Shown one piece after another: positions 728 to 16,981 of a stretch of 25,774 nt of DNA. This DNA comes from an uncultured Gammaproteobacteria bacterium (GTDB lineage Bacteria; Pseudomonadota; Gammaproteobacteria; UBA9214), in the NCBI GenBank assembly GCA_963827755.1, contig CAWHCQ010000003.1, positions 1 to 25,774 on the forward strand, in the 5' to 3' direction. The position numbers were made by a program, and so were the translations under genes. Under the pieces are notes generated by a model. It was not told where the DNA came from. It saw nothing but the letters and a program-made list of their open reading frames with translations, and did no database searches. The stretch's first letter is position 1. Every line of letters starts with the position of its first letter.

Positions 728-853
728 ACTCGGGGCTACGCCCCTCGCCCCTTCGGAGCCGCCGCCTGAATAACAATCCGCCATGTACGGGACGGTCGGC
801 GCGGCCGTCACGGGGGCCGCGCATGGGCAAGGCACCCGCCTTATGGTGCGCCC

Positions 854-887
854 ATTCAGCCTGTATTCAGCGAACATTGCCTATCCT
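854..887 (+). promoter_or_regulatory. PhoP/OmpR-type direct-repeat box plus -10 element
   Basis: ATTCAG(854-859)-N5-ATTCAG(865-870), 11 nt, then TATCCT(882-887). Resembles the Pseudomonas PhoP box GTTCAG-N5-GTTCAG. Confidence 0.7.
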
Positions 888-917
888 GTGCGTGGGTCCC
901 GAAAAAGGAGACAGACA

Positions 918-1445
918 ATGAAACGTACCATGATGGCATTCACCCTCGCGGCTTCGGCACTGGCCTGTTCCGGGGCGGCCGTATCCGGGCAGGACTTCGT
1001 TGACCAGGCCAGGGTCATCGAGGCAGACCCGCTGTATGAAACCATCCAGGTGGCACGCCCGGTCACGGAATGCTGGACGGAAAGGGTCACCCGCCACGAC
1101 CAGCGTCGCGGCGCCTATATCGCACCGATTGCCGGTGGTATTCTCGGTGGCGTGGTCGGCCACCAGTTCGGCAAGGGGCGCGGGAAAACCGCCCTGACCG
1201 TCGCCGGTACACTGCTTGGCGCCTCGCTCGGACGCGGGTACAGCACGGCGCAGCACCGGCCCCGGCCCCGGGTCGAAAACGTGCAACAGTGCAAGACCGT
1301 TGATCGCTATGAACGTGCGCAGCATCTCGTGGGCTATCGTGTAAAATACAGCTATGAGGGACAAACCCACTACACGCAGACGACCGAACACCCGGGCAAA
1401 TTTATACCGGTGCGCGTCAGGGTATCTCCGGCCAACGGAGTATGA
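918..1445 (+). CDS. YcfJ-like glycine zipper 2TM domain protein
   Basis: SD AGGAG 906-910 before ATG 918; signal peptide; GGILGGVVGHQFGKGRGKTALTVAGTLLGASLG zipper; GYRVKYSYEG...PG C-terminus. Confidence 0.88.
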   Translation: MKRTMMAFTLAASALACSGAAVSGQDFVDQARVIEADPLYETIQVARPVTECWTERVTRHDQRRGAYIAPIAGGILGGVVGHQFGKGRGKTALTVAGTLLGASLGRGYSTAQHRPRPRVENVQQCKTVDRYERAQHLVGYRVKYSYEGQTHYTQTTEHPGKFIPVRVRVSPANGV

Positions 1446-1466
1446 TGCACTGCTAGCCGCGCACCC

Positions 1467-1775
1467 ATGACGAACGGACGACTGATTACCGCCGCGTTGA
1501 TCCTGTTACTGGCCGCTGGCCCGGCACTCGCCGCTCCGTTTCATCACCCCCACCTGCTGATCGCGCAACGCGGTCACGCCGGCAACGGCGGGATCAGCCT
1601 GAACGAGGCGGTCACGCAGGCACGGCAGCAAAACAAGGGCAAGGTCCTGTCCGCGGAAACCATCCGCATCGATGGCCGCACTGTCCACCACATCAAGATC
1701 CTGACGCAGGACGGGCGGGTCAAGCGCAGCCGGATCGACGCCCGCACCGGGAACAACCGGTCACGCGGACATTGA
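1467..1775 (+). CDS. PepSY domain-containing exported protein
   Basis: Signal peptide (ALA) then ISLNEAV..AR....GKVLSAE...HHIKILT.DGRV...IDARTG; this type of gene commonly sits before phoP-like pairs. Confidence 0.8.
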   Translation: MTNGRLITAALILLLAAGPALAAPFHHPHLLIAQRGHAGNGGISLNEAVTQARQQNKGKVLSAETIRIDGRTVHHIKILTQDGRVKRSRIDARTGNNRSRGH

Positions 1776-1778
1776 GCC

Positions 1779-2462
1779 ATGCACATCCTGGTGGTCGAGG
1801 ACGAAACCCGCCTGCGAGAACAACTCAGTGAGCGCCTGCGCAGCCATGGCTATGTCGTCGACGAGGCGGCCGATGGCGAGGAAGGCTTCTACTACGGCGC
1901 GGAATTCCCGCTCGACATGGCGATTATCGATATCGGGCTGCCAAAGTTTTCCGGTATCGAGCTGATCCGCCGCCTGCGCGCCCGCGACAGGCATTTCCCT
2001 ATCCTGATACTGACGGCCAGGGGCAACTGGCAGGACAAGGTGGAAGGCCTGGAAACCGGCGCCGACGATTACCTGGTCAAGCCGTTTCGCTTCGAAGAAC
2101 TCGAGGCGCGCCTGAATGCCCTGCTGCGCCGCGCAACCGGCTGGTCGAAACCGGTACTGCAGTGCGGGCCGATTTCGCTGGATACCGTGAAACAGAGCAT
2201 CACGGTCTCGGACAATCCCGTGGAACTGACCGCCTTCGAGTACAAGGTGCTGGAGTACCTGATGCTGCATGCCGGTGAAGTCATTTCCAAGACCGAACTG
2301 ACGGACAACCTTTACGAGCAGGACTACGACCGGGACAGCAACGTACTGGAAGTGTTCATCGGACGCCTGCGGCGCAAGCTGGACCCGGACAACACCATCA
2401 GCCCCATAGAAACACTGCGTGGCCGCGGCTATCGATTTCGGCCGGGATCGAACAGCGGCTGA
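1779..2462 (+). CDS. phoP: OmpR-family response regulator, PhoP-like
   Basis: ILVVEDE, D phosphoacceptor (IIDIGLP), LTARGNWQDKVEGLETGADDYLVKPF, wHTH DRDSNVLEVFIGRLRRKLDP...TLRGRGYRF. Confidence 0.88.
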   Translation: MHILVVEDETRLREQLSERLRSHGYVVDEAADGEEGFYYGAEFPLDMAIIDIGLPKFSGIELIRRLRARDRHFPILILTARGNWQDKVEGLETGADDYLVKPFRFEELEARLNALLRRATGWSKPVLQCGPISLDTVKQSITVSDNPVELTAFEYKVLEYLMLHAGEVISKTELTDNLYEQDYDRDSNVLEVFIGRLRRKLDPDNTISPIETLRGRGYRFRPGSNSG

Positions 2463-3862
2463 TGCATTCGCTGCACAGTCGACTGCTGCTGGTTGCATCC
2501 CTGGTGCTTGCCGGCTTCCTTGGCGCAACCGGCCTGGTGCTCGACAAGGCGTTTCGCGTCAGCGCCGAGGCCGCCATGCAGGACCGCCTGCAGTCTCACA
2601 TCTATGCCCTGCTTGCGGCCGCGGATGACGATGAAAAAGGTCGAATGATCCCGGCACAGGAACTGCCGGAGCCGCGCTTTTCAAAACCGGACTCGGGTCT
2701 CTATGCCGTCATTACCGGCCACGACGGTCAACCGCTGTGGCAGTCCGCTTCACTGACCGGCCGGGACCTCGGTGCAACCCGGCAGCAGCTGCCCGGCGAG
2801 CGCCGCTTCAGCCGGGTTTCCCGTTCCGGCCTGCAGCTGTATACCCTCGCGTTCGGCGTGGCCTGGGGCGACTATGCCGGCAAGGAGTCGCTGTACACGT
2901 TCACCGTGGCGGAAGACACCACGGTATTCCAGGCGGAGATCGACAGCTTCCGCTCCACCTTGTGGCGCTGGCTCGGCGGCATGGCCGTGGCGCTGCTGCT
3001 CGCGCAGGGCTATATCCTGCGCTGGGGCCTGCGGCCACTGCGCAGCGTCACCGCCGACCTGCAGCAGATCGAGAAGGGCCGCACGGACCGCCTCGACGGA
3101 CACTACCCCAGGGAACTCACCGGCCTGACCTCCAGCCTGAATTCCCTCATCGAGCAGAGCAAGGCGGTACAGGTCCGTTACCGCAACAGCCTCGATGATC
3201 TCGCCCACAGCCTGAAAACACCCCTGGCGATCCTGCAGTCCACGGAAGCGGATTGCAGCGACGACCCCGAGGCACATCACGCGCTGGTCCGGGAACAGGT
3301 GGAACGCATGGATGACATCATCAGCCATCAATTGCAGCGCGCCGCCGTGTCCGGCCGGACCACGCTCGCCAAACCGGTGCCGGTCGGCCAGGTCGTGGAA
3401 CGGCTGGTGCGCTCCCTCGACAAGGTGTACCGGGAAAAACAGGTGACGGTTGACCTGGAACTGGACCCGTCAGCCACGTTCACGGGGGACGAGGCCGACC
3501 TGACCGAGATCCTGGGCAACCTGCTGGAGAATGCCTACAAGTACTGCACGCGTGCAATCCGTATAACCGTGCGCGCGAACCAGCACGCCGACGGCATCGA
3601 GATCGGCATCGAGGATGACGGACCGGGCATTGCAGCGGAACAGGTCGACACCCTGCTGCAGCGCGGCAAACGCATGGACGAGTCGGTTCCCGGCCAGGGC
3701 ATCGGCCTGAGCATGGCCAGCGAGATCATTCGCGTGTACGACGGGCAACTGGTCTTTGCCGCCAGCCCCCTGGGCGGCACCCTGCTGCGGGTCAGCTTCC
3801 GCGATCAACCATCCGCCGGTGCGGGGAACCGGGAGCGGTCTCCAGGCAAGCGGCAGGCATGA
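2462..3862 (+). CDS. phoQ: Sensor histidine kinase, PhoQ-like
   Basis: Two TM segments, HAMP, H-box DLAHSLKTPL, N-box GNLLENAYKY, DDGPG, GQGIGL; start overlaps the regulator stop. Confidence 0.87.
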   Translation: MHSLHSRLLLVASLVLAGFLGATGLVLDKAFRVSAEAAMQDRLQSHIYALLAAADDDEKGRMIPAQELPEPRFSKPDSGLYAVITGHDGQPLWQSASLTGRDLGATRQQLPGERRFSRVSRSGLQLYTLAFGVAWGDYAGKESLYTFTVAEDTTVFQAEIDSFRSTLWRWLGGMAVALLLAQGYILRWGLRPLRSVTADLQQIEKGRTDRLDGHYPRELTGLTSSLNSLIEQSKAVQVRYRNSLDDLAHSLKTPLAILQSTEADCSDDPEAHHALVREQVERMDDIISHQLQRAAVSGRTTLAKPVPVGQVVERLVRSLDKVYREKQVTVDLELDPSATFTGDEADLTEILGNLLENAYKYCTRAIRITVRANQHADGIEIGIEDDGPGIAAEQVDTLLQRGKRMDESVPGQGIGLSMASEIIRVYDGQLVFAASPLGGTLLRVSFRDQPSAGAGNRERSPGKRQA

Positions 3863-3896: not shown

Positions 3897-4295
3897 TCAG
3901 CGCAGGGGTGACAGGCTGACATTCACCGGCATGCGTTCACCGGGATCGTAGGACATCCGGGTGGTTTGTGTCTCCCCGCCATACCGGTAGGTCACCCGGT
4001 AACCGCTGATGTGTTCACGGGCGCTTTGTTCCGTGACGTTTCTGCAGCGGCGCTGCTGCTGCCACAGGCGGGCCTGGTGCCGGATATCCTCGCCGATGGT
4101 CGCCGCGATTTCGTTAAATTCCCGCGCCGATGCGTCCGGTTGTGTGCACACCCGGCGCGTGACCGGCTCATAGCGCGTTTCAATAATCGGCTCCACGTTC
4201 AACACCGGTGCAAAGGCGCGGTATTCAACGGCGTTCGCAGCGCCGCACATGAGCCAGGCGAGCAACAGGATCCGCAACTGCATTCCGGTTTTCAT
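3897..4295 (-). CDS. Exported YcfJ-like protein lacking the glycine zipper
   Basis: Signal peptide; shares V..V.P..ET...C / C..V...GYRV.Y.Y.G.T..T...PG...PV.V with 918..1445; SD GGAG. Confidence 0.75.
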   Translation of the reverse strand: MKTGMQLRILLLAWLMCGAANAVEYRAFAPVLNVEPIIETRYEPVTRRVCTQPDASAREFNEIAATIGEDIRHQARLWQQQRRCRNVTEQSAREHISGYRVTYRYGGETQTTRMSYDPGERMPVNVSLSPLR

Positions 4296-4349
4296 GTGTC
4301 TGCTCCGTTGCGCCTATCCCCGCAGGGAAAAATAATTTTCCTCTGCATG

Positions 4350-5147
4350 CTATCCGAACCCCATCTTGCCGAGCAGCTGCTCTCCCCTGCTCCGCTCCGC
4401 CTCGCTGGCATACAGCAGCACCACGTCAAACCCGCCATCGGTTCGACGAAACCAGTCCAGGCGCAACTCGCCGAACCCGGGCTGCAGCCGGTCAACAAAG
4501 GCGGCCGCGCGGTAGGGACGGGAAAAATGGATCACGAACAGGCGGTCCTGCCCCGAGTAGCGCTGCCGCGTCTTGTCACTGCCTGCCTTGTACCGCCGCC
4601 GTGCAGGACATAATCGAGATGCCGCATGATGTAGGCGCTGTACCAGATGGCACCGTCCGGCAAGCGTCCCCCGGTCACGGGAATCCGGCCAGGCCCGTAG
4701 TTATAGGCCGCCAGGGTGCGGTTCAGGTCACCGTCATAGCGCTGCTGCAGTTCCTTCAGGTAGCGCGCACCCGCATCGACATTGGTGCAGGGATCCAGCA
4801 CCTCGGACAACTGCTCCAGTCCCAGGTGTTTTGCCGTGTCGGGCCAGAGTATCTGCATCAGCCCGTAGGCATTTGCCTTTGAACGGGCCCGCGGCTTGAA
4901 ATCACTCTCGCCCCTGGCAACGGCCACCAGCAGGGTTTCCGGCAGGCCATGGGCGGTGGCCGCGCGTTTGAAACAGTGTGCGTAGGGGAAATCCAGCGCA
5001 GGCCGGGTCTCCTGCGCGGACGCTGGCATACGACTGCCAGCGCGCCGCCAGTGCCACGCTGTCGATCGACGGGTCCGTCTTCGACACGACTGTCGCGGCC
5101 CACGACAGGCCGGCACAGACGATCAGTATCAAGGCCGGTCGCAGCAT
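4350..5147 (-). CDS. Lytic transglycosylase (SLT domain) with signal peptide and SPOR-like C-terminal domain; two frameshifts (~5015, ~4575)
   Basis: SLT motifs VARGESDF, GLMQI, AAYNYGPG in ORF 4532..5116. Signal peptide is in ORF 4902..5147. C-terminal domain RLFVIHFSRPYRAAAFVDRL...FDVVLLYASEAER is in the frame of 4350..4535. Confidence 0.82.
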
Positions 5148-5149
5148 GA

Positions 5150-5826
5150 CTACTCCAGCTCGAGCCCGGTCACGTCTTCAATCTGCGCGACCATGGCCTG
5201 GCGTTCAGCGTCGTCCCGGTAACTGAAGACCACCTGGTAGTTTCCCGGCCCCGCGCTGATCACTTCCACCGGCACCGCGGTGGCCTGTGTCAGGCGCCGC
5301 GCAAATCCCTGCGCGGCCCACTCACTCCGAAAGGGCGTCCACACCAGGTAACGGGACACTTTCGCGGCCTCACCGGGGACGGCCGTTGCGTAACCGGCCA
5401 GGGACCGGTTCCATGACTGCGGATTCAACACCCGCCCGTCGTCCCCGGCATCCGGTCCCGGTTCTTCACCCGGGCCTGCAGACTCCGAAACCGGAGGCGG
5501 CATGTGCACGGCGGCGTCGACGGGCGGGACCACGGCCGGCACCGGCATGGGCCGGTTCAATGGCCGGGAATTCAAAGCCAGCGCGTCGTCCACGGCGTCC
5601 AGCCCCGTGCCTTCGGCAGGGCCTGCAGACACAGAAACCGGGGACTCCCTGCATCGACGGCATCCTCGACGGCACGCTCCTCTACCGCTTCGGGTCCGGC
5701 GGGTACATCCACGGCACGGCTGGCGGCCTTCTGCAGCGGCAGCCAGGCACTGCCGGCACCCAGGGCCAGCAGGAACACGGCCAGCATCAGCAGGCTACCC
5801 ACAACCATGCCGACGGCCCGCATCAT
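5150..5826 (-). CDS. Membrane-anchored protein with Pro/Ala/acidic linker and SPOR-like C-terminal domain; frameshift in the G4 run at 5640-5643
   Basis: ATG 5826 overlaps the upstream stop (ATGA); TM VVGSLLMLAVFLLAL; one added base joins it to YLVWTPFRSEWAAQGFARRL...YQVVFSYRDDAER. SPOR call is by pattern only. Confidence 0.65.
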
Positions 5827-7251
5827 GGCAGCCGCCGCGCCGTCCACACGGCATGCTCACGGTTCGCCACGATCAAGCGGTCCAGCCGGTCCAGCCACGG
5901 GTCCCGGCCGGCAGCGGCTGCGTGCAGGCCATCCTCGTTGCCGCAGGCATCGGGCACGTCCTGCAGCAGTTGCCTGAACTGCCGCGCCGGCCCGGCACCG
6001 CTGACGGCAATGGCATACACCGTCGGCCAGTCGGACGACGTGAAACGCGCCTCGGGAAACCGGTAGGCATGCCGGCCCGGGCGCGCCTGCGCCGGTGCTT
6101 GCGTACCGCAGGCGCCGGACAGCCGGCTGATGCCGTCCTCGATGCCGTGGGCAATCACGAACACCTGCTCGGCCTGCTCCACGTCCACTTCCAGTACCGG
6201 GCAGCCGGTCACGCCGTCGCGGCAGCTGTCCCGGTTGTGATCACCATTGGTACGCCGCACCAGTTCCATGCGGGTGATGGTTGGCGTCATGCCGCGGCTG
6301 TCCTGTGCCACGCGGCGCTCCCCCGGACGATTGCCGGCCGGCGGAATGCGCATCCAGGTCGCCGTATCCATGCCGGCAAGGTGCACGCCGGAGTCCCTCG
6401 GGTGCAGGACGACCCAGACCTGGTAGAGGCCCGGCTGGATCATGTGGGTCTCGCCGCGCAGCACAAAGTTCGCCTGCCGGCCGGCGTCGGTCACCTGCAC
6501 CTCGCGGTAGCGCGACAGGTTGTTCCCGACCAGGCCCAGCAGGGTGCGCAGCTGCGGCAGGCCGGAGCCGGGTGTTTCCACCTTGATTTTCAGGTCTTCC
6601 ACATCCTGCTGACGCAGCAGGCAACTCAGGTTGTTGGCCAGGTAGGTGGCGGCCAGGTCCGGCTGCCCGGAACTGAAGGGCAGGACCCGGAGCCCGCGCA
6701 GCGATTCATCGGTACGCCGCACCTGCAGGGCGCGTAATTCACTGCCGGTCAGATTCCCCGACCAGTGCTGACGCGAAACCGCTGACCCATTCACCCGCCT
6801 TGACATCCAGGGCGCGCACCGCCACCCGAAACCGGCCGGTGGCCGTGCGCGATATTTCGATGCCGATATAGTAACTGGCGTCATGGATCCGGCCGCACTG
6901 CACCTGGTCCAGGCGGCGATGATGCTGCGCCTGCTGTTGCCGGGGTTGCCAGGGAACGACGACACCGGGTGTTTTCAGCAGGCTGTCCATGAGCTGGTCA
7001 CGGAGGCCGCGCGTCAGGCCGTCGATGTCCGGCTGTATGTCGTCACCGTCGAGGCGCACGACGATCACCGGCTCGCCCCTGAAGCGCGGATGCTGACCAA
7101 ACTGCTGCACCACGTAGGGTGCAAGCTCGCTGTCCACCCAGTCCTGCAGTGCGGACGGGGTGCCGTGGTCGGGACGCAACGGCTGCTGGCTGCAGCCGCT
7201 AGCCAGCAGCAGGGCCAGTATTGCAAACAAGCTGTGGCGCCCGGTTATCAT
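5823..7251 (-). CDS. Large multidomain lipoprotein (possible FlgO/LpoB/CsgG-like alpha/beta domains); frameshift ~6773
   Basis: SD GGAGG; lipobox LASGC; ORFs 6739..7251 and 5823..6965 join at EWVSGF|QHWSG with a 1-nt change. Fold call is inference. Confidence 0.7.
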
Positions 7252-7255
7252 GCCG

Positions 7256-8222
7256 TCATTCCTCCAGTGTCACCTGGCCGTCAGCGCGGATCACCAGCAC
7301 ACCACCCTGCTGCCCGCGTTCCTGCTGCTCCTGCAACAGCGCACTGATGCCGGCCTTTGCGGCCGCCGGCAATTGCACCCCCCACACAACACCCGAGCGC
7401 CCGGGGCCGTCCGCCCGCGCCTGCAGGCTGTGAAGGTAGTGTGCCGGGACGGTCGCCGCCGACATCTCGTGAAACCATTCCGGGAACGTGATCGGCGTAG
7501 CCGTGGACCGGCCCGCCTGCATCGACAGGCGCCATGCCTGCTGATCGAGCATGCCGTAGAGGATGACGCTGCCCGCCGCGACCAGGCGGTCGAGGGCGGC
7601 GTCCGATGCAAACCGCAGGGTAAATCCGCGTTTTTCGGGCACCGGCCTGGCCACGGGTTCCGGGGGCGGTTGTTTCACGGCCACGGGCGCTGGCTGGCGG
7701 CCGGCGCCTGAGCGCCGCGATGTCCTTGCGTGCCCGGTCCAGCTGCACCTGTGCATCGAGATGCCGCCCGCGCAGTTCGGCGAGGGTGTGTTCTTCCTGC
7801 ATCGAGTCCTGCTCGATGTCTGCCAGCGCCCGGCGTCCCTGCTCCAGCTGCCGGTCAAGGTCTTCCAGTTGCAATGCGAGCCGGTCGCGCTGCCGGCGCG
7901 CCTGCTGCGTCTGCCCGGCGAGCTGCGCAAGGTCCTGCTGCGTGCTGTCCTTTTCCGATTTCAGCGCGTGCAACTCGGCCAGCAGCTCGCGCAGCTGTTG
8001 CTGCTGCGTCCTGATGTCCTCGCGTATCTTCGCGGCCTGCAGCGCCTGCGCCGGTTTCCCGGACTCCTGCACCGGGATACCCTGCACCAGCGCAAAGATC
8101 GCCATCAGGCACAGGCCGATAATCGACATAAAGCGCATGACATCCGTTTGCAGGGCATCGGTATCACTCCCGGCCGCAGCGGAGGCCGGTAAAAACCGCG
8201 CATATCGACGGCGCCGGATCAT
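7256..8222 (-). CDS. MotB/ExbD/TolR-like single-TM protein with long coiled coil and unknown C-terminal domain; frameshift ~7705
   Basis: Basic N-terminus MIRRRR; Asp-containing TM QTDVMRFMSIIGLCLMAIFALV; Q/L/E-rich heptads; Pro linker; C-terminal domain GFTLRFASDAAL... in the frame of 7256..7930. Confidence 0.62.
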
Positions 8223-8882
8223 CGTCCTTCCTGCAATGCATAGCGTGGTGCGGGTGCGTGCGCCGCCGTCGAGGGACTCGCGGATCTCGCCGAGCAGGGC
8301 TTCAACCCGGTTGGCATGGTGCTGCTCGTGCTCCTCGTAGTAGCGGCTCAGCCGGGTACCCAGCAGCGAGCTCTTGGTCACCCGCATCATGTAACCGCCG
8401 ATCCCGCCCACGATGGTGGTCGTCAGCGCGGTCAGGATGCCGCCATCCACGAGACGCTGCAGCACGGCATAGGCACCGGCTTGTGCGGCCACATCCGGAT
8501 CGCCGAGGGCAAACAGCAGCGCACTGCGCATGCCGATCGCGGTCCAGATGACGCCGATGCCGAAGAACAGGCTGGTCCACACATCGTTCAGATGCTCAAG
8601 CTGGCTGATCTCGTCCGGCGAACGGTTGTCGTCGAGCCAGTGCTGCAACATGCGCAGGCTGCGGATATACAGGCCCAGGGTGATCGCGAAAGGCAGTACC
8701 GACAAGCCGAGGTTGCGGCGGCTCCACTCGAACACCAGCTGGACGCGGGGCACCTCGAGCACGGAGACCGAAATAATCCCGAGGACCGTCAGCAGGTACA
8801 CCGCCACCAGCCCGGCCATGAAACTGAGCGTCATGCCCAGCAACACGCCGTTGAAAAAGCCGCGGTCCTTCTGCCGTTGCAT
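8219..8882 (-). CDS. MotA/TolQ/ExbB-like ion-channel subunit; probable frameshift ~8255 creates an apparent fusion to the next gene
   Basis: About 4 TMs; FFGIGVIWTAIGM and GGILTALTTTIVGG resemble family motifs G..GT..G and GI..AL.TT..G. The alternative frame ends in TGA 8219-8221 overlapping ATG 8222. Confidence 0.7.
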
Positions 8883-8888
8883 CGTCGC

Positions 8889-9446
8889 CTACTCGACCGG
8901 CCCGCAGGCCTCGCAGGTGGCCTGCAGCACCAGTTCAGCCTCCTGGTAGAGGTTGCTGGCACGCGTATAGTTGAGCCGGTCCGAGCTGATCTTGAGCAGG
9001 CCCTGTTCCTTGTCGGCCAGTTCCCGGTTCATCTCACGCATGACCTCGGACTGGTGCGGGCAGGTTTGCGCGCAGACGCTGTAATCGCTGACCAGGGACA
9101 CGTACTTGACGCCGAAATAACGGTTGTAGGTTTCCCGCGCCTGGCGCTTGCTCAACAGCCCGGCATCATTGGCCCACAGCAGGAAGTCGCTGAAGACGGC
9201 CTTGTTCTCCTTTTTCGGGTCACCCTCCGCGATCGCAAGCAAGCGCTGGAAGTAGGCATCGAACTGGCGTTCGCAGCCGGTTTCCAGGTCGAAGCGGGCC
9301 GCGCTGATTGCCTGTTCCAGGTTCGGCCCCTCCGGCAGGTTGCAGCTGACCGCCTTGGTGGGATTGCTGTTGCAGGCCGACAGTGACAGGGTGATGGCCG
9401 CCACGGTAACGATGCCGGCCAGTTTGATTTTCATGGATGCGTTCAT
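8889..9446 (-). CDS. Helical lipoprotein, unknown function
   Basis: Lipobox LSAC; six further Cys including two CxxC (CAQTC-like, CEAC). Confidence 0.8.
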   Translation of the reverse strand: MNASMKIKLAGIVTVAAITLSLSACNSNPTKAVSCNLPEGPNLEQAISAARFDLETGCERQFDAYFQRLLAIAEGDPKKENKAVFSDFLLWANDAGLLSKRQARETYNRYFGVKYVSLVSDYSVCAQTCPHQSEVMREMNRELADKEQGLLKISSDRLNYTRASNLYQEAELVLQATCEACGPVE

Positions 9447-9470
9447 GGTGGTTCTCCGGTTCGGTTACGG

Positions 9471-10310
9471 TCACATTTGCAGGGAACTTTCATAGCCGGC
9501 GTCGCTTGGTGCGACGGGCGATATCGCCATCGGCATGACGTCCAGCTCTTCTCCAAACAGGATGGCCTTGACACCGCTGACCACCTCCTGCATTTCCGGG
9601 GTTATGGTCCCGAATGACTGGTTCAGCTGTTCCATCAGGGTGGCGCGGGCAATCTCTTCCCGGGTGCGCGCAATCAGGCTGGACGTCTCCTGCATGTCGA
9701 GATAGATGTCGGAGGCGATCACGGCCAGCGAGGAATTGGTCTTGCTGCCGGAGCGCGCCACCAGCTGGTAGTACTGGCTGAAGCGGGCACTGAGCCGCAT
9801 GCCGGAGCGCCCGCGCAGCGACGGCTGGCTGGCCGCGGCCGCTTGCCCGGACTCCTCGCCGATCAGCAGCTCCTGCAGGGTCCAGGACGTTCTTTTCTGA
9901 CCCAGCTCCTTGCGAATGCGCTTTTCGAGACTGGAAGACGTGGCATTCACCGCGGTTTCCATCTCCGGCAGCCGCTCCGCCATGACGTTCAGCATCTCGA
10001 GATAGCTTTTCCCGAGTTGCCGGGCGATGCGCTCACAGCCGGGATCACCTTCGTTGCCCTCGCACTTGCTTTCCAGGTACAGCTGCTGCTGCTCGTCAAG
10101 CTGGCTGATGACGGCCTGCAAGCCGGTTTCCATTTCCGCGGCGACATTCCCGGTATGCTTGATTTCCTCCAGCACGGTGGTTGGAAACAGCTTGATGGTC
10201 GGCGCGGTCGAACTCGCGTGAACGGCGACCGGCGCCAGCAGGCACCCGCCCAGCAGCATTGCGAGTAATTGCCGGGCACCCTTGCGGGCACAAATGATTG
10301 CAGTCTTCAT
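9471..10310 (-). CDS. Exported helical/coiled-coil protein, unknown function; first gene of the operon
   Basis: SD AAGGAGGT before ATG 10310; signal peptide ending AVHA; Cys pair CEGNEGDPGC. Confidence 0.82.
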   Translation of the reverse strand: MKTAIICARKGARQLLAMLLGGCLLAPVAVHASSTAPTIKLFPTTVLEEIKHTGNVAAEMETGLQAVISQLDEQQQLYLESKCEGNEGDPGCERIARQLGKSYLEMLNVMAERLPEMETAVNATSSSLEKRIRKELGQKRTSWTLQELLIGEESGQAAAASQPSLRGRSGMRLSARFSQYYQLVARSGSKTNSSLAVIASDIYLDMQETSSLIARTREEIARATLMEQLNQSFGTITPEMQEVVSGVKAILFGEELDVMPMAISPVAPSDAGYESSLQM

Positions 10311-10853: not shown

Positions 10854-12239
10854 TTACGGCCACTGGTTACCGGGGTGGGCCCAGTCGAATTCATCCAGGC
10901 TACCCGGCTCATGCTCCCGCATCATCTCGAAGGCCAGCCACTCCTCGTCGTTGCCGATGTTCTTCAGCGTCTCATCTCTCGAGAAATAGGTCTGCTTCAT
11001 CTTCGGGTCGAAGTTCAAACCGGGTTCCACATCGTTCGGTATGCCATCCTGGTCCGTGTCTAACGTCGCAAGCTGGTCGTCGGGAATCTTCGAGTACCAG
11101 TTGTGCCAGGCGAGCCAGTGAGTGAACTCGTGCAGGACGACGACGGCGAATGTGTCGATGTTCTGGACCGTCCGCCACCCCAGAAACTTCAGCTCGCGAC
11201 TGCGATCGAGCAACGGAAAGCGCAGCTCATACCGCCTCGGCTTCAGCTTCAAAAGATCACAGACAAGCACGGTCTTGTACCCGAACCTGGGGTTATGGAC
11301 GCCGGCCACGCCCTCTCTCGCGCACATATCCACCGCTCCACCACCGTAATCGATCGCTACGGCCTGGCCCTTGGGTCGTGCAGCCGGTGTCTGACGCCAG
11401 TAGTAGAACCAGTTCGGCTTCTGACCGCCCGGGTTGTTGTAGGCGCTGCGCGGGAAAAACAGCTTGACCTTGCGTTTCGCGCTGGCGCGGCACTCCTCGG
11501 TCTCGACCCGGGCCCGAAACTCCTTCTCGCCGAAACCCGACAGCTCGCGGGGCAGACCGGTCAGGGTCACACGCAGACGAGGGCCGCGCCGGTTCTCCGG
11601 CTCCGTAACGATCCGAGTCGGGGCCTCCATTTTCGGCAGAGACCAGGTGATCTCCGGCTCGTACTTCTTCGGAGTGAGCTTGGCACGGAAATCGAGTTCC
11701 AGTTTGCCCGGCTTGTCGTCCGAGAACTCTTCCCGATACCCCTCGGCCGGCCGCGTGATGGTGAGCTCACACGGTGGATTTACCCCGCCGATTCGCCAGG
11801 TCACCTTGCCGGTGGCACCGCCCGGCGACGGGGTTTCGAAGACCCTCTCCGCGCCGTCCTCGAGCGGGAGCGAGATCGCGGACTCGCCTTCGAACAGGTC
11901 CAGCGGCACGGTCTGACCGTAAACGTGGAGCATCAGGGCGCAGTCAGGGACAAAGGTGAGAATCCCGTCCTCCACGCTGCCGCGGATGATGAGATTCCCC
12001 GTGGACTTCGGGGCATTCTTCCCTGCAAACGTCAGGGGACCCGTCGCGTTGACGGCTACGGGCTCCTGCGCAACGACGAACTCGACGTGCCCCTGCGCTT
12101 TCGACCAACCTCCTCTCGGAGCGGTTCCCGAGAGCTCGTACACCAGAGTCCATTGTTCGCTCTTCCGATCCGCTAGTGCCTCGGAGGGGCCACAGATGAC
12201 CGCCATGAACGTGAGAAGCACGATCAGGCGGCATGACAT
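10854..12239 (-). CDS. Exported putative zinc metallopeptidase-like protein, copy 1
   Basis: Signal peptide (ALA-D); beta-rich N-terminal domains; VLHEFTH; DTDQDGIPND Ca-binding-like loop; downstream EEWLA. Start may instead be GTG 12287. Confidence 0.7.
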   Translation of the reverse strand: MSCRLIVLLTFMAVICGPSEALADRKSEQWTLVYELSGTAPRGGWSKAQGHVEFVVAQEPVAVNATGPLTFAGKNAPKSTGNLIIRGSVEDGILTFVPDCALMLHVYGQTVPLDLFEGESAISLPLEDGAERVFETPSPGGATGKVTWRIGGVNPPCELTITRPAEGYREEFSDDKPGKLELDFRAKLTPKKYEPEITWSLPKMEAPTRIVTEPENRRGPRLRVTLTGLPRELSGFGEKEFRARVETEECRASAKRKVKLFFPRSAYNNPGGQKPNWFYYWRQTPAARPKGQAVAIDYGGGAVDMCAREGVAGVHNPRFGYKTVLVCDLLKLKPRRYELRFPLLDRSRELKFLGWRTVQNIDTFAVVVLHEFTHWLAWHNWYSKIPDDQLATLDTDQDGIPNDVEPGLNFDPKMKQTYFSRDETLKNIGNDEEWLAFEMMREHEPGSLDEFDWAHPGNQWP

Positions 12240-12488
12240 CGTCCGTCGTGCAGGCGCATCGCCCGCCTTCAAAAAGGCGCATGCCACCCTGGCCCGCCCC
12301 GGCTGGGCGACGGCACTGGAGCGAGCGACCCTATCCTGCGCCGACTTTCCCGGATGCCTCGGACAACGTCGTTGCATAACACAGCAAACTCCGAAGCGAG
12401 TCGAGGACAGTGGCGCGGGTCTTGATGACGTCATACACATCTTCGATTGTATTGCTGAAATTAATGGGACCGTATAAAATTATAAAAA

Positions 12489-12594: not shown

Positions 12595-12664
12595 AGAATT
12601 CAAGGGGTCAGAGTACCTGGACCCCACTATCAGGCATTTCAAGTACTCTGACCCCTTGAATTCT
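12595..12664. repeat. REP doublet, subfamily B (miniature of the RAYT element)
   Basis: AGAATTCAAGGGGTCAGAGTAC ... GTACTCTGACCCCTTGAATTCT 22-bp arms matching the RAYT flanks. Confidence 0.85.
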
Positions 12665-14093
12665 CAGGGCCACTGGTTGCCGGGACGTGCCCAGTCGTAC
12701 TTGTCCAGGCTACCGGGGGCATGCTCGCGCATGATCTCATACGCCAGCCATTCCTCGTCCCCGTTGATGTTCTTCAGCTTTGGGTCATTCGCAAAATAGG
12801 TCTGGAAAATCTTCGGATCGAAATTCAATCCCGGCTCCATGTCATCCGGTATGCCGTCGGCGTCCGCATCAACCTTCGCCAATTGCTCAGGGGAAATCTT
12901 CGAGTACCAGTTGTGGTCGGTGAGAAAATGCTGATACTCGTGCAGCACGGCCACGGCGAACGTATCGATGTTGCGCACCTTTCGCATACCCGAGAATTTC
13001 CGGGCCGCGTTGCGATCGAGCAGCGGAAAGACCAGCTCGAACGCATTCGGTTTCAGCCTCGAGATATCACAGACGAGCAAGGTCTTATATCCGAACCTAC
13101 GATTATAAATGGCGGTTACTCCCGGGGTTTTACAGAGATCCACGGTGCTGCCGCCGTAATCCAGCGCCACGGCCTGGCCCTTGGGTCGTCCAGCCGGCGT
13201 CTGGCGCCAGTAGTAGAACCAGTTTGGGTGCTGCCCCCCCGGATTGTTGTCAGCCTCGCGCGGAAAAAACAGCTTGACCGTGCGCTTCGCGCTCGCTCGG
13301 CACTTCTCGTTCTCGATCCTGGCCCTGAACTCCTTCTCACCGAAACCCGACAGCTCGCGGGGCAAACCCGTTAGGGTCACACGAAGACGAGGACCACGGC
13401 GATTATCCGGCTTAGTAACGATCTGAGTGGGGGCCTCCACTTTCGGCAGGGACCAGGTGATCTCCTCCTCGTACTGCTTCCGATTGAGCGTCGCGCGAAA
13501 ATCGAGAGTCAGCTCGCCCGGCTTGTCGTCGGAGAACGCCGCGCGATGCCCCTTGGCCGGTCGCGTGATGGCGAGCTCACAGGGTGGATCGACCCCGCCG
13601 ATTCGCCAGGTCACCTTGACGACGGGGCCGGTGGGCTCCACCCTTTGGGAGATCTTTTCCGCGCCCTCCTCGAGAGAGATCGAGACCGGGGAGTCGTCCT
13701 GGAACATGTCCAGCGGCACGGTCTGACCTAGAGGTGTATGAACAGCGAGCTGGAAGGGACGAAGGTAAGAACCCCGTCCTCGACGCTGCCCCGGATCGTG
13801 AAGGTCCCCACGGACTTTGCGATGTTCGTCCCTTCGATCGTCAGCGGACCTGTCGCGTTGACCGCCGCGGGGTCCTGGGTGACGACGAACTCAATGTGCC
13901 CTTGCGTATCAGACGCCATTTGCGGATTGGTCACCAACTGCTGAAAAAAGAGAGTCCATCGTCCACTCTCCCGATCTGCCGAGGCCACGGAGGGGCCGAA
14001 GACCACCGCCACGAACGCGAGAATCACGATCAGCCGGCCTGGGTCCGTCCGTCGTGCTGGCGCATCGCCCGCCCTCAAAAAGACGCGTTGCAC
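12664..14093 (-). CDS. Exported putative zinc metallopeptidase-like protein, copy 2; 1-nt deletion at ~13729
   Basis: Colinear with copy 1; HVY-GQTVPL becomes CAC CTC TA- GGT CAG; VLHEYQH, DADADGIPDD, EEWLAY. GTG start at 14093 is inferred. Confidence 0.7.
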
Positions 14094-14191
14094 CTCGGCC
14101 CGCCCCGGCTCGGGCAACGGCGCAGGAACGAGCAGCCGTACCCTGCGCCATCTTTCCCGGATACCTCGGACAACGTCGTTGCAGAACACAG

Positions 14192-14332
14192 CTAACTCCG
14201 CAGCGAGTCGAGGGCCCGGGCGAGGGCCTCGATGATGTCGTCTGCATCTTCGATCCCGACGCCGAAGCGGAATGCGCCGTCCCCCATCAGGTTCCAGTAC
14301 TTCATCTTCGTTTTCTCGCCGGGCTCGATCAT
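14192..14332 (-). pseudogene. 3' fragment of a Cys/Met metabolism PLP-dependent enzyme (MetB/MetC/MdeA family)
   Basis: GDGAFRFGVGIEDADDIIEALARALDSLRS* resembles the family C-terminal R.SVGIED..D.I.DL..AL motif. A more decayed copy lies at ~12385-12447. Confidence 0.7.
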
Positions 14333-14390
14333 GTGTGCATTGGAAGCATAACCCGGCATAACCCACGCATCTCGAGAGAATTAAAGGGGC

Positions 14391-15948
14391 CTAATTGCCG
14401 ACCGCTTCGAACGCACCCATATCCGGGGCGCGGCCGAGAGCGCGCTTACTGCCGTCGCGATCGCGCAGCGGAAAATCAACAGGCAGCGCGATGCCCGCAT
14501 CGATGGCCGGACTGGAGGCGGCCGGTCGGAGATCCCGGTCCAGCCGCGGATCAGCCGTGAGATTGCCGGCGCCGTAGCGCCGGTTGAGCGCGGTCGGCCC
14601 GTTTCGATAACCGGTTGTCGAAGTCGCCGTGGATCAGGATCTCCGAACCATCAGCCGTGTAGAAGAGCGTGTGCCGGATGGACACGGCCGTAGACTCCGG
14701 GTTGATCCATGCTGCCCCCGAGGGATTGGCGATGATGCTGTTTATGATCTCGATGTGCATGGGTTTGCGCTCGTCATAGCCGCAGATCATGCTGTAGTCG
14801 CGGTGACCTTTGAACTTGGGCTCGAATCCGATCGTGCTGTTCAGCAGTCGGAAGCGCCCTTCCTCGACCACGACCGGGTTCTGCCCACCGCGCAGAATCA
14901 GGGTGTTAACGACGTCGCCGCCGTACCACAGCTTCAGCGCATTGTTCTCGATCCCCTGGACGCGGCTGTCCAGCACCGCAACGCGCGTGGCTTTGGTATC
15001 GATGCCGTCGGAGCCGCTGCCGAGTACCGTGACGTTGACCAGCAGGATGTTGTCGCCCGATTCGATGGCGAAAGCGTCCGCACCCCAGCCTTCACCCCTG
15101 GCCTCGATAGTAACGTTCTCCAGGCGCCAGCCGGTGCAAGGCCCGGTGCCACAATGGATGATGGCCTCCGCTTGCACATTGGCCAGCAGAAGCCCGTCGA
15201 CAGAGGCGCTGGCTTCCCACATGGCGATGGCCTCTTCCGAACCAGTGATGGCAAGGTCAGCAATGACGATGTCGCGATTGCGATTGCGCCCGACGTCAAA
15301 AAGGATACCGACCGAGGGGAAGCCGCTGATGTCGATACCGCGGATGACAAGATTCTGTGCATTGACAACGATTCCATATTTGATCCCTGTCGCCGGCCGC
15401 ATGACGACTTTTTCTCCCGGATATGCCATCAACGTCAGGTTACTGGTGGTAACCACCAAGGCCCGGTAGTCATCGCGCTCCCATGCCTCCGCATAGGTCC
15501 CTGCGCGTACGACGATCGTGTCTCCGGCCACGGCCTTGCCAACGGCACGGACGATGCTGCGCAGGGGTGCCTGCTTGGTTCCGGTCGCCGCATCGTTCCC
15601 ATTGGTGGCGACATAGATCACCCGGGTTGTTGGTACCTTCCAGGCTGGAAGCTCCGGAAACCGATCATAGTCGAGCTTGACAAAGGTCATATCTGCAATC
15701 TCGGCATCGCTCCTGAGCACACCGATCCGTTTGTTCGATGAAACACGCAGCCGTGCACCTGCGGAGGATTTCGGGTCCGGTGCCTGCGCCACCAGTGACG
15801 ACCAGTCAGTCTGAGTCAGCGAGGCGTTGCCCGACACTACCGGCTCGGGAGCAGCGCATAGAAACACCAGAGCCAGATAGCTTGCACCATAACCCAGCAG
15901 TCGTCGGACCGGTCGCTGCTGCATGGTATTCATCGATTTCCCTGGCAT
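14391..15948 (-). CDS. Exported right-handed beta-helix (pectin lyase-like, DUF1565-type) protein with choice-of-anchor Q-like tail; frameshift ~14605
   Basis: IYVATNGND...GT...PLRSI..A...A.AGDTIVVRAGTY. The alternative frame continues ADPRL...SSPAIDAG...DRDG..R....PDMGAFE to TAG at 14391. SD AGAGGA. Confidence 0.8.
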
Positions 15949-16150
15949 ATCAGAAGTTCCTCTCTTATAGCGTGACCCTTGTCGCATATAACGCTCTACC
16001 TGCTCCGCCCATTTATCTGTGAATTCAAGGGGTCAGAGTACTTGAACCCCGTCACCAGGTAAAATCCTACAGACATCGGCCAAGCTGTTCAGTATATTTT
16101 CTGCACTAGCAAATAATCTCCTTTCATCATTACGCAAATGGAGTTGCGTT

Positions 16151-16852: not shown

Positions 16853-16981
16853 GTATGCCGACTTTCAAGTACTCTGACCCCTTGAATGTAGAGTTAAAAA
16901 GTATGAGCATGGCGGGGACCGTCGGAGTGAGCGTTATAAAGTTTGAGAATGCCGACTTTCAAGTACTCTGACCCCTTGAAT
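16794..16981 (+). repeat. 94-bp tandem duplication of the RAYT 3' end plus right arm
   Basis: 16794-16887 equals 16888-16981 except gagtatg vs gagaatg. Confidence 0.92.

What the first reader, a model, noticed from the sequence alone, without database searches (positions are those of the whole stretch)
3897..10310. Candidate undescribed ion-gradient-powered envelope/peptidoglycan remodelling machine (8-gene operon)
Seen: eight tightly packed co-oriented genes, all predicted exported or membrane-bound: helical protein, lipoprotein, MotA/TolQ-like, MotB/ExbD-like with TM Asp, large lipoprotein, SPOR-like, SLT with SPOR-like tail, YcfJ-like. Established: MotAB/ExbBD/TolQR/ZorAB pairs are ion-driven motors; SPOR domains bind denuded glycans that lytic transglycosylases cleave. 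No TonB receptor, TolA/TolB/Pal, flagellar or ZorC/D/E genes are present. Inference: a distinct trans-envelope complex, perhaps for stress repair or assembly of an outer-membrane ring. Novelty is unverified.
Basis: partly seen in the sequence, partly recalled or inferred. Interest (0 to 1): 0.85.

Follow-up and report, generated by a model that had tools for sequence, protein, structure and literature searches.

The report
Conserved envelope operon with divergent stator-like pair
This is a broken copy of a seven-to-eight-gene cell-envelope operon, shared by many marine-sediment bacteria and matching no described system, whose two central membrane proteins faintly resemble the ion-driven Tol/Ton/flagellar motor pair, so it may be a new kind of envelope machine.

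Summary
The gene set is real. Intact same-genus copies carry eight co-oriented, overlapping genes (g1-g8). Of 80 related loci, 53 keep g1-g7 in the same order, 8 lack only g6 and 19 are cut by contig ends. Relatives were found at 361 places among one genome each of 185,579 species.

The window copy is damaged. It has five internal frame changes (g4, g5, g6, two in g7) and a read-through from g3 into g4. At five of these six sites, near-identical contigs from four public sediment runs lack the extra base(s).

Only the lytic transglycosylase g7 is a clear family member (SLT, E 1.9e-29).

The motor reading rests on weak but consistent evidence:
- g3, with four membrane helices, fails the Pfam MotA_ExbB model.
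- Profile comparison aligns g3 with TolQ, ExbB and MotA in one register (P 0.002-0.015; 24 controls P 0.08-0.83).
- That register puts invariant T114 and near-invariant T156 on TolQ Thr145 and Thr178.
- g4 has an invariant membrane Asp, a spacer that is coiled-coil or proline-rich by lineage, and a constant C-terminal domain.

I found no described equivalent. Verdict: a probable new variant of the ion-driven stator and force-transducer theme; its function is unknown.

The parts
9471..10310 (-). g1: exported, mostly helical protein (279 aa). It is the most conserved gene of the cassette and has no known family.
   Evidence: ORF and signal peptide. 88% identical to L014 g1. Alignment A4 of 45 sequences has 58% mean column identity, with invariant C83 and C92. 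No Pfam or PDB-sequence match of note.
8889..9446 (-). g2: 185-aa lipoprotein with conserved cysteines and no known family.
   Evidence: Lipobox LSAC. Alignment A5 of 44 sequences has invariant C25, C35, C58, C125 and C181. No Pfam or PDB-sequence match.
8223..8882 (-). g3: protein with four membrane helices and a remote MotA/ExbB/TolQ-like channel motif. T114 is codon 8541-8543 and T156 is codon 8415-8417. In the window it reads through into g4.
   Evidence: AF2 model pLDDT 92.5 with helices 3-33, 45-84, 89-126 and 137-211. Invariant G110, T114, G117, L153 and G159. hhalign against TolQ, ExbB, MotA and all combined gives P 0.0039, 0.015, 0.0079 and 0.0021 in one register; controls give P 0.083-0.83. 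PF01618 is matched weakly by 6 of 74 family members. The locus is not found by PF01618 in the own genome.
7256..8222 (-). g4: single-pass protein with an invariant membrane Asp (D27, codon 8142-8144), a coiled-coil spacer and a conserved C-terminal alpha/beta domain. It is broken by a frameshift near 7690.
   Evidence: tblastn frames -3 then -1. Invariant L23, Q24, D26, M28 in 55 of 55 sequences. AF2 pLDDT 85.5. Spacer statistics. One base is left out at 7690 in contigs of all four runs.
5823..7251 (-). g5: large lipoprotein (about 478 aa when intact) with a DUF4384-type region. It is broken by a frameshift near 6773.
   Evidence: Frames -2 then -3. Lipobox ASGC. DUF4384 is matched by 7 of 50 family members, best E 4.3e-10. 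ESM Atlas neighbours are DUF4384 and CsgG/FlgO/LPP20 lipoproteins (a lead only). hhalign against 14 CsgG sequences gives P 0.0029 over the N-terminal 93 columns. One base is left out at 6773 in all four runs.
5150..5847 (-). g6: single-pass protein whose C-terminal domain is paralogous to the g7 tail. The frame changes between about 5494 and 5656.
   Evidence: Frames -2 then -1. g6 tail against g7 tail: hhalign Prob 94.9, E 4.6e-8. g6 tail against SPOR: only P 0.022. Not detected in 8 of 61 loci that have room for it.
4350..5147 (-). g7: exported lytic transglycosylase (SLT domain) with a SPOR-like C-terminal tail. It is broken by frameshifts near 5024 and near 4586-4588.
   Evidence: PF01464 E 1.9e-29, and 5 of 5 relatives at E 1e-26 to 3e-28. 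Tail against 29 SPOR domains: Prob 51.5, P 1.5e-4. Frames -3, -1, -3. Bases are left out at 5024/5025 (four runs) and at 4586/4588 (three runs).
3897..4295 (-). g8: small exported protein with a YcfJ/UmoD-like C-terminal part. It is a lineage-specific addition.
   Evidence: NCBIfam PRK11280 E 4.6e-10 and UmoD E 5.4e-08, both far below their cut-offs. Detected in 30 of 80 loci.

Best explanation
The region is one copy of a conserved envelope-spanning cassette, g1-g7, with g8 added in this lineage.

**Proposed core.** The core is a very divergent relative of the ion-driven stator pair.
- g3 would form the ring-shaped channel subunit, like MotA, ExbB or TolQ.
- g4 would sit inside that ring with its membrane Asp as the ion-binding site, like MotB, ExbD or TolR.
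- Unlike Ton and Tol, g4 seems to be its own force transducer. Behind the membrane helix it carries a periplasm-spanning spacer and a constant 115-135-aa C-terminal domain.

**Proposed partners.** The C-terminal domain of g4 would engage the probable outer-membrane lipoproteins g5 and/or g2. The lytic transglycosylase g7 and the membrane-anchored g6 share a SPOR-like domain; they would open or hold the peptidoglycan where the complex crosses it. g1 would be a periplasmic partner.

**Shown.** Gene content, order and conservation; the SLT domain; the invariant Asp; the variable spacer; the paralogy of the g6 and g7 tails.

**Inferred.** Homology of g3 to MotA/ExbB (weak), ion drive, stoichiometry, all protein contacts, and the cellular role.

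**State of the window copy.** It is disrupted by six small insertions, which are either assembly errors or decay in this strain.
For: **A conserved unit.**
- Of 80 loci, 53 have g1-g7 colinear, 8 lack only g6, 19 are cut by contig ends, and none is rearranged.
- Carriers include Thiogranum, Sedimenticolaceae, Woeseiaceae, Motiliproteus, tubeworm symbionts and Desulfobacterales, by record titles.
- Genes overlap; g3 and g4 overlap by 4 nt in L014.

**g3 as a channel subunit.**
- hhalign against TolQ (31 sequences, P 0.0039), ExbB (10, P 0.015), MotA (8, P 0.0079) and all 49 combined (P 0.0021) gives the same register each time.
- Four reversed and 20 column-shuffled controls give P 0.083-0.83.
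- In that register, invariant T114 and the at-least-90%-conserved T156 fall on TolQ Thr145 and Thr178; numbering was checked against 8odt_A.
- G110, G117 and G159 fall on TolQ G141, G148 and G181.
- PF01618 is the family that most g3 relatives touch, though only 6 of 74, best E 0.0028.
- In the non-significant Foldseek list, MotA, ExbB, ZorA and TolQ chains take ranks 1, 3, 6, 8 and 9.

**g4 as the partner and transducer.**
- D26 is invariant in 55 of 55 sequences, inside the motif LQTDVMRFM at the start of the only membrane helix.
- The spacer is 150-227 aa with 2-10% Pro in one group, and 60-111 aa with 18-32% Pro in most Woeseiaceae-type loci (one has 11%). The C-terminal domain stays at 115-135 aa.

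**Other points.**
- g7 carries an SLT domain, and the g6 and g7 tails are paralogous.
- Fused g3-g4 forms are rare. The search for longer relatives found only the window's own ORF and one weak hit to another protein (64% identity over 23% of the query), against 1707 stand-alone relatives.
Against: **Against the motor reading of g3.**
- The window's g3-g4 ORF and L014 g3 gave no PF01618 match, and scanning the own genome with PF01618 at E up to 1 finds four canonical genes but not this locus.
- The g3 profile finds no MotA, ExbB or TolQ chain among PDB sequences at E up to 10.
- Foldseek has no match at E <= 0.001 for g3.
- hhalign probabilities are low (3-13%), whereas true family members compare at P 1.9e-15.
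- The kink prolines of TolQ (Pro138, Pro187; PMC12215075 passage) have no counterpart in g3, by my reading of the alignment.

**Against the motor reading of g4.**
- g4 against 25 TolR sequences gives only P 0.09.
- No ExbD, MotB or OmpA family is matched by any of the 55 g4 proteins.
- Foldseek has no match at E <= 0.001 for g4.

**Other weaknesses.**
- The window and L047 carry g3 and g4 in a single frame. If real, that fits a 5:2 ratio badly.
- No substrate, receptor or phenotype is known.
Confidence: 0.5

Rival explanations
1. It is an envelope complex without a motor. g3 and g4 would be membrane anchors or scaffolds for a peptidoglycan-remodelling or outer-membrane-tethering assembly (g7 SLT, g6, lipoproteins g2 and g5). 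The membrane Asp and the Thr/Gly motifs would serve helix packing, not ion flow.
For: No family model or fold search places g3 or g4 in the stator families. The only firmly assigned activity in the cassette is peptidoglycan cleavage. The hhalign signals are weak.
Against: A charged Asp kept in 55 of 55 single membrane helices is costly unless it is functional. The g3 motifs align with the two pore threonines of TolQ in three separate comparisons and beat all 24 controls. The spacer of g4 swaps between coiled-coil and Pro-rich forms as in force transducers; the comparison with TolA and TonB is from my own knowledge.
Confidence: 0.22
2. It is a secretion or assembly channel. g5 would form a CsgG-like outer-membrane ring that exports or assembles g1 or another substrate. 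g3 and g4 would act as energiser or gate, and g7 would clear the peptidoglycan.
For: ESM Atlas neighbours of g5 are DUF4384 lipoproteins, many of them with CsgG, FlgO or LPP20 domains (scores 0.91-0.97; a lead only). DUF4384 is matched by 7 of 50 g5 relatives. hhalign of g5 against CsgG gives P 0.0029 over the N-terminal 93 columns. g1 is exported and is the most conserved protein.
Against: No CsgG Pfam match in any of 50 g5 proteins at E <= 1. PF03783 finds nothing in the own genome. The CsgG alignment covers only the first beta-alpha-beta unit. No curli-like subunit or other cargo gene is conserved nearby.
Confidence: 0.12
3. It is a domesticated lysis-type cassette. g3 would be holin-like, g7 the endolysin, g4 an inner-membrane spanin-like protein (membrane helix plus coiled coil) and g2/g5 the outer-membrane lipoprotein partner. 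It would serve controlled lysis or vesicle release.
For: The parts list resembles a holin, SLT endolysin and two-part spanin set; that resemblance is from my own knowledge. g4 has a membrane helix followed by a coiled coil.
Against: g3 has no tblastn match in 50,697 phage records or 72,556 plasmid records. The g4 model has no match at E <= 0.001 in the viral structure library, and no spanin appears among the 50 rows shown. No phage genes flank the cassette in the loci clustered. g5 is about 480 aa, far larger than known outer spanins (recalled). In many lineages the coiled coil is replaced by a Pro-rich linker.
Confidence: 0.05
4. On the state of the window copy only: the six frame-breaking insertions are real, and this strain carries a decaying, non-functional operon rather than assembly errors.
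For: ORF lengths in the rest of the genome are normal (mean 299 aa and 1.0 ORF per kb, against 278 aa and 1.09 per kb in 14 relatives' loci), so the assembly is not error-ridden overall. The sites are not homopolymer runs. The breaks are confined to 4586-8245, while g1, g2, g8 and the flanking kinase are intact.
Against: The five breaks that could be checked are gains of one or two bases relative to near-identical contigs from four runs of four studies; the g6 site was poorly covered. I saw no deletion and no in-frame stop, which is an odd spectrum for natural decay (inference). The broken stretch has the highest G+C of the contig, 0.66-0.70, where consensus errors are plausible. The source reads could not be examined.
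Confidence: 0.4

Closest known systems
Tol-Pal motor TolQ-TolR-TolA (and Ton: ExbB-ExbD-TonB)
   Same: A polytopic channel-type protein sits next to a single-pass protein with a membrane Asp. The g3 motifs align with the TolQ Thr145/Thr178 region. There is a periplasm-spanning spacer, helical or Pro-rich, ending in a small C-terminal domain. Outer-membrane lipoproteins are encoded in the same operon.
   Different: There is no Pfam membership for g3 or g4. g3 has four membrane helices and no large cytoplasmic domain. The spacer and C-terminal domain are on the Asp-bearing subunit itself, not on a third protein. There is no TolB, Pal, TonB box partner or receptor gene. Canonical MotA/ExbB-family genes lie elsewhere in the genome, among them a TolQ on contig C45.
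Flagellar stator MotAB/PomAB with its H/T-ring lipoproteins (FlgO, FlgP, FlgT)
   Same: The A subunit has four membrane helices with both ends in the cytoplasm. The B subunit has a membrane Asp and a periplasmic domain. The system is associated with a lytic transglycosylase and with ring-forming outer-membrane lipoproteins. The flagellar side of this comparison is from my own knowledge; g5's Atlas neighbours include FlgO and LPP20 families.
   Different: g4 has no OmpA-like peptidoglycan-binding domain. g3 has no torque-generating cytoplasmic domain. No flagellar genes lie in the cassette.
Type 9 secretion / gliding core GldK-L-M-N (PorKLMN)
   Same: The layout of lipoprotein, small polytopic motor subunit, single-pass subunit with a long periplasmic arm, and a periplasmic or outer-membrane partner is analogous. 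This comparison is from my own knowledge of that system.
   Different: No sequence or fold similarity was detected. The phyla differ. The known system has no SLT gene, as far as I recall.
Zorya ZorAB
   Same: It is a divergent 5:2-type pair used outside motility. A ZorAB chain (8vvi_C) appears in the weak Foldseek list for g3 (E 1.3, TM 0.61 by target).
   Different: PADLOC finds no Zor protein. The long coiled coil is on g4, the B-type subunit, and lies in the periplasm, not on the A subunit in the cytoplasm. There is no ZorC, ZorD or ZorE gene.

Membership tests
MotA/ExbB/TolQ proton-channel family (PF01618), for g3 | Match to the family profile above the curated threshold | tested here: not met
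   No PF01618 hit for the window ORF or for L014 g3. Six of 74 relatives hit weakly, best E 0.0028. The locus is not found by PF01618 in the own genome at E <= 1.
MotA/ExbB/TolQ proton-channel family (PF01618), for g3 | Two C-terminal membrane helices carrying the conserved pore threonines (TolQ Thr145 and Thr178) and their flanking glycines | tested here: met
   hhalign puts g3 T114 and T156 on TolQ T145 and T178, and G110/G117/G159 on G141/G148/G181. P is 0.0039, 0.015, 0.0079 and 0.0021 against controls at 0.083-0.83. Numbering was checked; the role of the threonines comes from PMC12215075 passages. The weak statistics make this a motif-level result.
MotA/ExbB/TolQ proton-channel family (PF01618), for g3 | Fold match to solved MotA, ExbB or TolQ chains | tested here: inconclusive
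   Foldseek finds no match at E <= 0.001. MotA, ExbB, ZorA and TolQ chains are at ranks 1, 3, 6, 8 and 9, with E 0.4-1.3 and large rmsd. The VIA-align libraries were not available.
MotA/ExbB/TolQ proton-channel family (PF01618), for g3 | Pentamer enclosing a dimer of the partner (5:2) | not testable with these tools
   This needs cryo-EM, native mass spectrometry or a full 5:2 model. See Tried and rejected.
ExbD/TolR/MotB family, for g4 | A single N-terminal membrane helix with an invariant Asp, encoded directly after the channel subunit | tested here: met
   D26 is invariant in 55 of 55 sequences. g4 follows g3 in all 80 loci where both are seen.
ExbD/TolR/MotB family, for g4 | Profile similarity to ExbD/TolR, or an OmpA-like C-terminal domain (MotB) | tested here: not met
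   No ExbD, MotB or OmpA family appears among the Pfam matches of the 55 g4 proteins. hhalign against 25 TolR sequences gives P 0.09 for the N-terminus and P 0.027 for the whole protein. No fold match.
SLT lytic transglycosylase (PF01464), for g7 | SLT domain above threshold, with the catalytic Glu-Ser motif | tested here: met
   E 1.9e-29 and 102 bits against a cut-off of 21.3. Five of 5 relatives hit. The window sequence reads ...ARGESDFKP...; the role of the E-S motif is recalled.
SPOR domain (PF05036), for the g6 C-terminus and the g7 tail | Match to the SPOR profile | tested here: inconclusive
   Pfam gives E 0.09 for the window g6 and 0 of 10 relatives. hhalign of the g7 tail against 29 SPOR domains gives Prob 51.5 and P 1.5e-4 over 67 columns; the g6 tail gives P 0.022. 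The two tails are homologous to each other (E 4.6e-8).
YcfJ / UmoD (NCBIfam PRK11280, NF041435), for g8 | Whole-protein score above the curated cut-off | tested here: not met
   39.6 bits against 99, and 32.6 bits against 150. Only residues 69-125 match. This is a shared C-terminal domain, not an equivalog.
DUF4384 / CsgG-like lipoproteins, for g5 | Match to PF14326 or PF03783 | tested here: inconclusive
   PF14326 is matched by 7 of 50 relatives (best E 4.3e-10) but not by L014 g5 or the window fragments. PF03783 is matched by 0 of 50. hhalign against CsgG gives P 0.0029. Atlas neighbours are a lead only.
Zorya and other known defence systems | Match to PADLOC models of ZorA-E or others | tested here: not met
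   Only coiled-coil noise appears on the g3-g4 ORF, plus one weak restriction-enzyme row (REase_II, E 0.004) on g1.

The most novel reading that the evidence does not exclude
g3 and g4 would found a new class of ion-driven 5:2 envelope motor. In it, the Asp-bearing axle subunit is itself the periplasm-spanning force transducer. It would pull or turn a dedicated outer-membrane lipoprotein assembly (g5, g2) through a hole kept open by its own lytic transglycosylase (g7) and anchor (g6). This would be a Tol/Ton-like machine built from unrelated parts, common in marine-sediment sulfur oxidisers, Woeseiaceae, tubeworm symbionts and Desulfobacterales.
Probability: 0.35. Interest if true: 0.8.

Novelty: new variant of a known kind. 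Interest (0 to 1): 0.62.

Why it matters
Only a handful of ion-driven envelope motors are known: flagellar Mot/Pom, Ton, Tol, gliding Agl and Gld/Por, and Zorya. Each one opened a field.

Here a seven-gene cassette appears at 361 places among one genome each of 185,579 species. Five of its seven proteins (g1-g4 and g6) reach no Pfam family threshold. It shows the minimal signature of such a motor joined to its own peptidoglycan-cutting enzyme and outer-membrane lipoproteins.

If the motor reading holds, it would show that the channel-plus-Asp core can be reduced to a 221-aa protein with four membrane helices. It would also show that the axle subunit can take over the TonB/TolA role. That gives a directly testable system for how force crosses the periplasm.

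If it does not hold, the cassette is still an unexplained, strongly conserved envelope module in bacteria that are recalled to be abundant in marine sediments.

Tried and rejected
**Searches and tests that gave nothing**
- Complex prediction with four copies of g3 (residues 1-205) and two copies of g4 (1-60) returned "no answer" (score 0.01, controls not run). It says nothing either way.
- PADLOC gave coiled-coil noise on the g3-g4 ORF and one weak restriction-enzyme row on g1.
- The g3 profile against PDB sequences gave only unrelated membrane proteins at E 0.14-6.8.
- The profiles of g1, g2 and g5 against PDB gave nothing usable.
- Pfam on the g1 and g2 relatives gave nothing consistent.
- The ESM Atlas on the g4 C-terminal domain gave no usable hit, with TM-scores of 0.42 or less.
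- Foldseek of the g4 model against the PDB and viral libraries gave nothing at E <= 0.001.
- An HMM of g3 against 180 ORFs from TolQ loci ranked a TolQ first, but at E 0.063, which is not significant.
- The promoter and terminator scan was at chance level.

**Matches judged to be chance**
- The urea-transporter match of L014 g3 (PF03253, E 1e-4, seen in 2 of 74 relatives) was judged membrane-composition noise.
- PF24161, listed for the window's 533-aa ORF, is a coiled-coil family (CCDC39) with no match in the genome.

**Apparent exceptions explained**
- Loci L029 and L041 seemed to lack g5-g8. They are scaffolds with N-gap joins right after g4.

- The part 5372-5773 had little or no contig cover, so the g6 frame change could not be checked.

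**Limits of the literature check**
The supplements of PMC12505986 and PMC12204202 may list uncharacterised motor families that I could not see.
- PMC10666116 was searched for residue names and returned nothing.

Full report
**What is at the coordinates**

The minus strand of 3897..10310 carries a run of ORFs. They match, at 70-88% protein identity, eight genes of an intact same-genus locus, L014 from genome G003. I call them g1 to g8.
- g1: exported helical protein, about 279 aa.
- g2: 185-aa lipoprotein.
- g3: 221-aa protein with four membrane helices.
- g4: 322-aa single-pass protein.
- g5: lipoprotein of about 478 aa.
- g6: 183-aa single-pass protein.
- g7: 264-aa exported lytic transglycosylase.
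- g8: 137-aa exported protein.

In L014 the genes abut or overlap; g3 and g4 overlap by 4 nt. Signal peptides and lipoboxes can be read in the window copy. The window is the whole of contig C3 of a 2.85-Mb, 52-contig genome that is 92% complete.

**The window copy is broken**

Against the intact proteins, the frame changes inside g4 (residues 180/188), g5 (162/164), g6 (68/70) and twice in g7 (about 43-59 and 183/184). In addition, g3 runs into g4 without a stop.

I laid contigs of four public sediment metagenome runs from four studies on 4300-8300.
- They leave out two bases at 4586/4588 (three runs).
- They leave out one base at 5024/5025, at 6773 and at 7690 (four runs each).
- They leave out one base at 8243/8245 (three runs).
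- These are exactly the break points. One 2746-nt contig spans 5810-8300 with 87 mismatches and only these three gaps.
- The g6 site was poorly covered.

The sites are not homopolymers. ORF lengths over the rest of the genome are normal: mean 299 aa and 1.0 ORF per kb, against 278 aa and 1.09 per kb in 14 relatives' loci. So the damage is local.

The five checked sites are all small gains of bases, and they lie in the most G+C-rich stretch of the contig. That makes me lean to a local assembly artefact (about 0.6) over real decay (about 0.4). Only the source reads can tell.

**Conservation**

- The g3 protein has 1707 relatives at E <= 0.001 among proteins of 121-387 aa. All of those listed are unnamed or called "hypothetical", except one called a nickel/cobalt efflux permease by its source.
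- It has 220 clusters at 50% identity in a library of 1.84 billion representatives.
- In one genome for each of 185,579 species, 361 places encode a relative.
- Of the best 80 loci, 53 carry g1-g7 in the same order and strand, 26 of them with g8. Eight carry g1-g5 and g7 but no detectable g6: six Desulfobacterales or delta-proteobacterial loci and two others. Nineteen end at a contig edge or an N-gap. None is rearranged.
- Record titles name Thiogranum, Ectothiorhodospiraceae, Sedimenticolaceae, Chromatiales, Woeseiaceae, Motiliproteus, tubeworm endosymbionts and Desulfobacterales.
- Within the window's own genus, 11 of 24 genomes have the cassette. Sixteen genomes of 16 other families of the class have none with this query.
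- Clustering of flanking ORFs finds no further gene conserved beyond the genus. The response regulator, kinase, PepSY protein and glycine-zipper protein next to the cassette are genus-level neighbours.

**What the proteins are**

*g7 and g6.* g7 has an SLT domain (E 1.9e-29; five of 5 relatives). Its C-terminal 70-90 residues and the C-terminus of g6 are homologous to each other (hhalign Prob 94.9, E 4.6e-8). The g7 tail aligns over 67 columns with 29 SPOR domains (Prob 51.5, P 1.5e-4), while Pfam's SPOR model is not reached.

*g8.* It shares only a C-terminal part with YcfJ and UmoD.

*g5.* DUF4384 is matched by 7 of 50 relatives. The Atlas neighbours are DUF4384 lipoproteins with CsgG, FlgO or LPP20 domains (a lead). 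A weak alignment to the start of CsgG gives P 0.0029.

*g1 and g2.* They match nothing, although g1 is the most conserved protein of the set, with 58% mean column identity.

**The putative motor pair: g3**

g3 folds with high confidence (pLDDT 92.5) into four long helices plus a long C-terminal helix. From the charge distribution I read both ends as cytoplasmic; that is inference.

Evidence against family membership:
- It fails Pfam PF01618.
- It fails a profile search of PDB sequences.
- Foldseek gives no significant match. The weak list is headed by MotA, ExbB, ZorA and TolQ chains, at ranks 1, 3, 6, 8 and 9 with E 0.4-1.3.

Evidence for a remote relationship:
- Profile-profile comparison with alignments I built from other genomes of the class gives P 0.0039 (31 TolQ), 0.015 (10 ExbB), 0.0079 (8 MotA-type) and 0.0021 (all 49).
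- Each comparison pairs the same two segments.
- Four reversed and 20 column-shuffled controls give P 0.083-0.83.
- MotA against TolQ, as a positive control, gives P 1.9e-15.
- In the shared register, the invariant T114 and the at-least-90%-conserved T156 of g3 fall on TolQ Thr145 and Thr178 (numbering).
- Passages of PMC12215075 describe these two threonines as a polar ring next to the essential TolR Asp23.

**The putative motor pair: g4**

- It has an Asp that is invariant in 55 of 55 sequences, inside a near-invariant LQTDVMRFM motif at the start of its only membrane helix.
- It shows no significant similarity to TolR (P 0.09) and no Pfam family beyond coiled-coil noise.
- Behind the helix lies a spacer. 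In one group it is 150-227 aa, with 2-10% Pro and predicted helical. In most Woeseiaceae-type loci it is 60-111 aa with 18-32% Pro (one has 11%).
- Then comes a constant 115-135-aa alpha/beta domain.
- Swapping a helical spacer for a proline-rich one while keeping both ends is what TolA and TonB look like (my own knowledge). It suggests that the spacer only has to span the periplasm.

**Reading**

The best-supported model is an envelope-spanning machine. Its inner-membrane core would be a very divergent stator-type pair, and its Asp-bearing subunit would carry its own force-transducing arm toward the lipoproteins g5 and g2. By the E. coli +2 sorting rule, which I recall, Ser or Asn after the lipid-modified Cys predicts an outer-membrane location for both lipoproteins. 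g7 and g6 would handle the peptidoglycan.

I put this at 0.5. The rivals are:
- the same complex without ion drive (0.22);
- a CsgG-like export or assembly channel (0.12);
- a domesticated lysis-type cassette (0.05). This one is disfavoured because g3 has no match in the phage or plasmid collections, the viral fold search shows no spanin, and the loci have no phage context.

Two observations sit badly with a 5:2 ratio: the window and locus L047 carry g3 and g4 in one frame. However, related contigs lack one base at the window's junction. A search for longer relatives found only the window's own ORF and one weak hit to another protein.

**Novelty**

Three full-text searches returned nothing that matches this gene set:
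- stator family names;
- DUF4384;
- ion-driven rotary motors with new families.

Two recent surveys of stator and force-transducer evolution were read as passages only (PMC12505986, PMC12204202), and their supplements were closed.

I therefore rate this a new variant of a known kind, on the condition that the weak g3 homology is real. If it is not, the cassette is an unexplained conserved envelope module. The interest score is 0.62.

Noticed in passing
window 4586-8245: All six frame breaks of the operon lie in a stretch of about 3.7 kb, which is also the most G+C-rich part of the contig (0.66-0.70). Genes on both sides are intact and genome-wide ORF lengths are normal.
   Followed up: partly
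L047:1119-2753 (+): A second locus, with a 3.5-kb contig labelled Desulfobacterales, has g3 and g4 in one 544-aa frame like the window. It is 72% identical to the Thiogranum-type g3, so the bin label may be wrong.
   Followed up: no
L070, L076, L079, L089, L092, L102, L061, L064: g6 is not detected between g5 and g7 in these loci. In the four gaps I worked out (L061, L076, L089, L102) only about 110-180 nt lie between the two genes. The anchor protein therefore seems dispensable in Desulfobacterales-type versions.
   Followed up: partly
window 783-3862 (+): A glycine-zipper (YcfJ-type) protein, an OmpR-type response regulator and a HAMP histidine kinase lie convergent to g8. The same set, plus a small protein that I read as PepSY-like (not tested with a family model), flanks the cassette in 15-17 loci, all among the closest relatives. 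It is a possible regulator of the operon.
   Followed up: partly
window 10854-12440 (-): A 528-aa ORF directly upstream of g1 has no Pfam match and contains an HExxH-like string (HEFTH). It is not present at this position in L014.
   Followed up: no
window 12664-15987 (-): Two ORFs without any Pfam family (351 and 212 aa) are followed by a DUF1565 / right-handed beta-helix protein (478 aa).
   Followed up: no
window 16000-25774: G+C falls to 0.46-0.59 in the second half of the contig, against 0.60-0.70 in the first half. This may be a composition boundary.
   Followed up: no
L029 and L041 (records titled 'chromosome'): These records contain 100-nt N runs every few kb, so they are joined contigs. 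The apparent loss of g5-g8 there is a scaffold artefact.
   Followed up: yes
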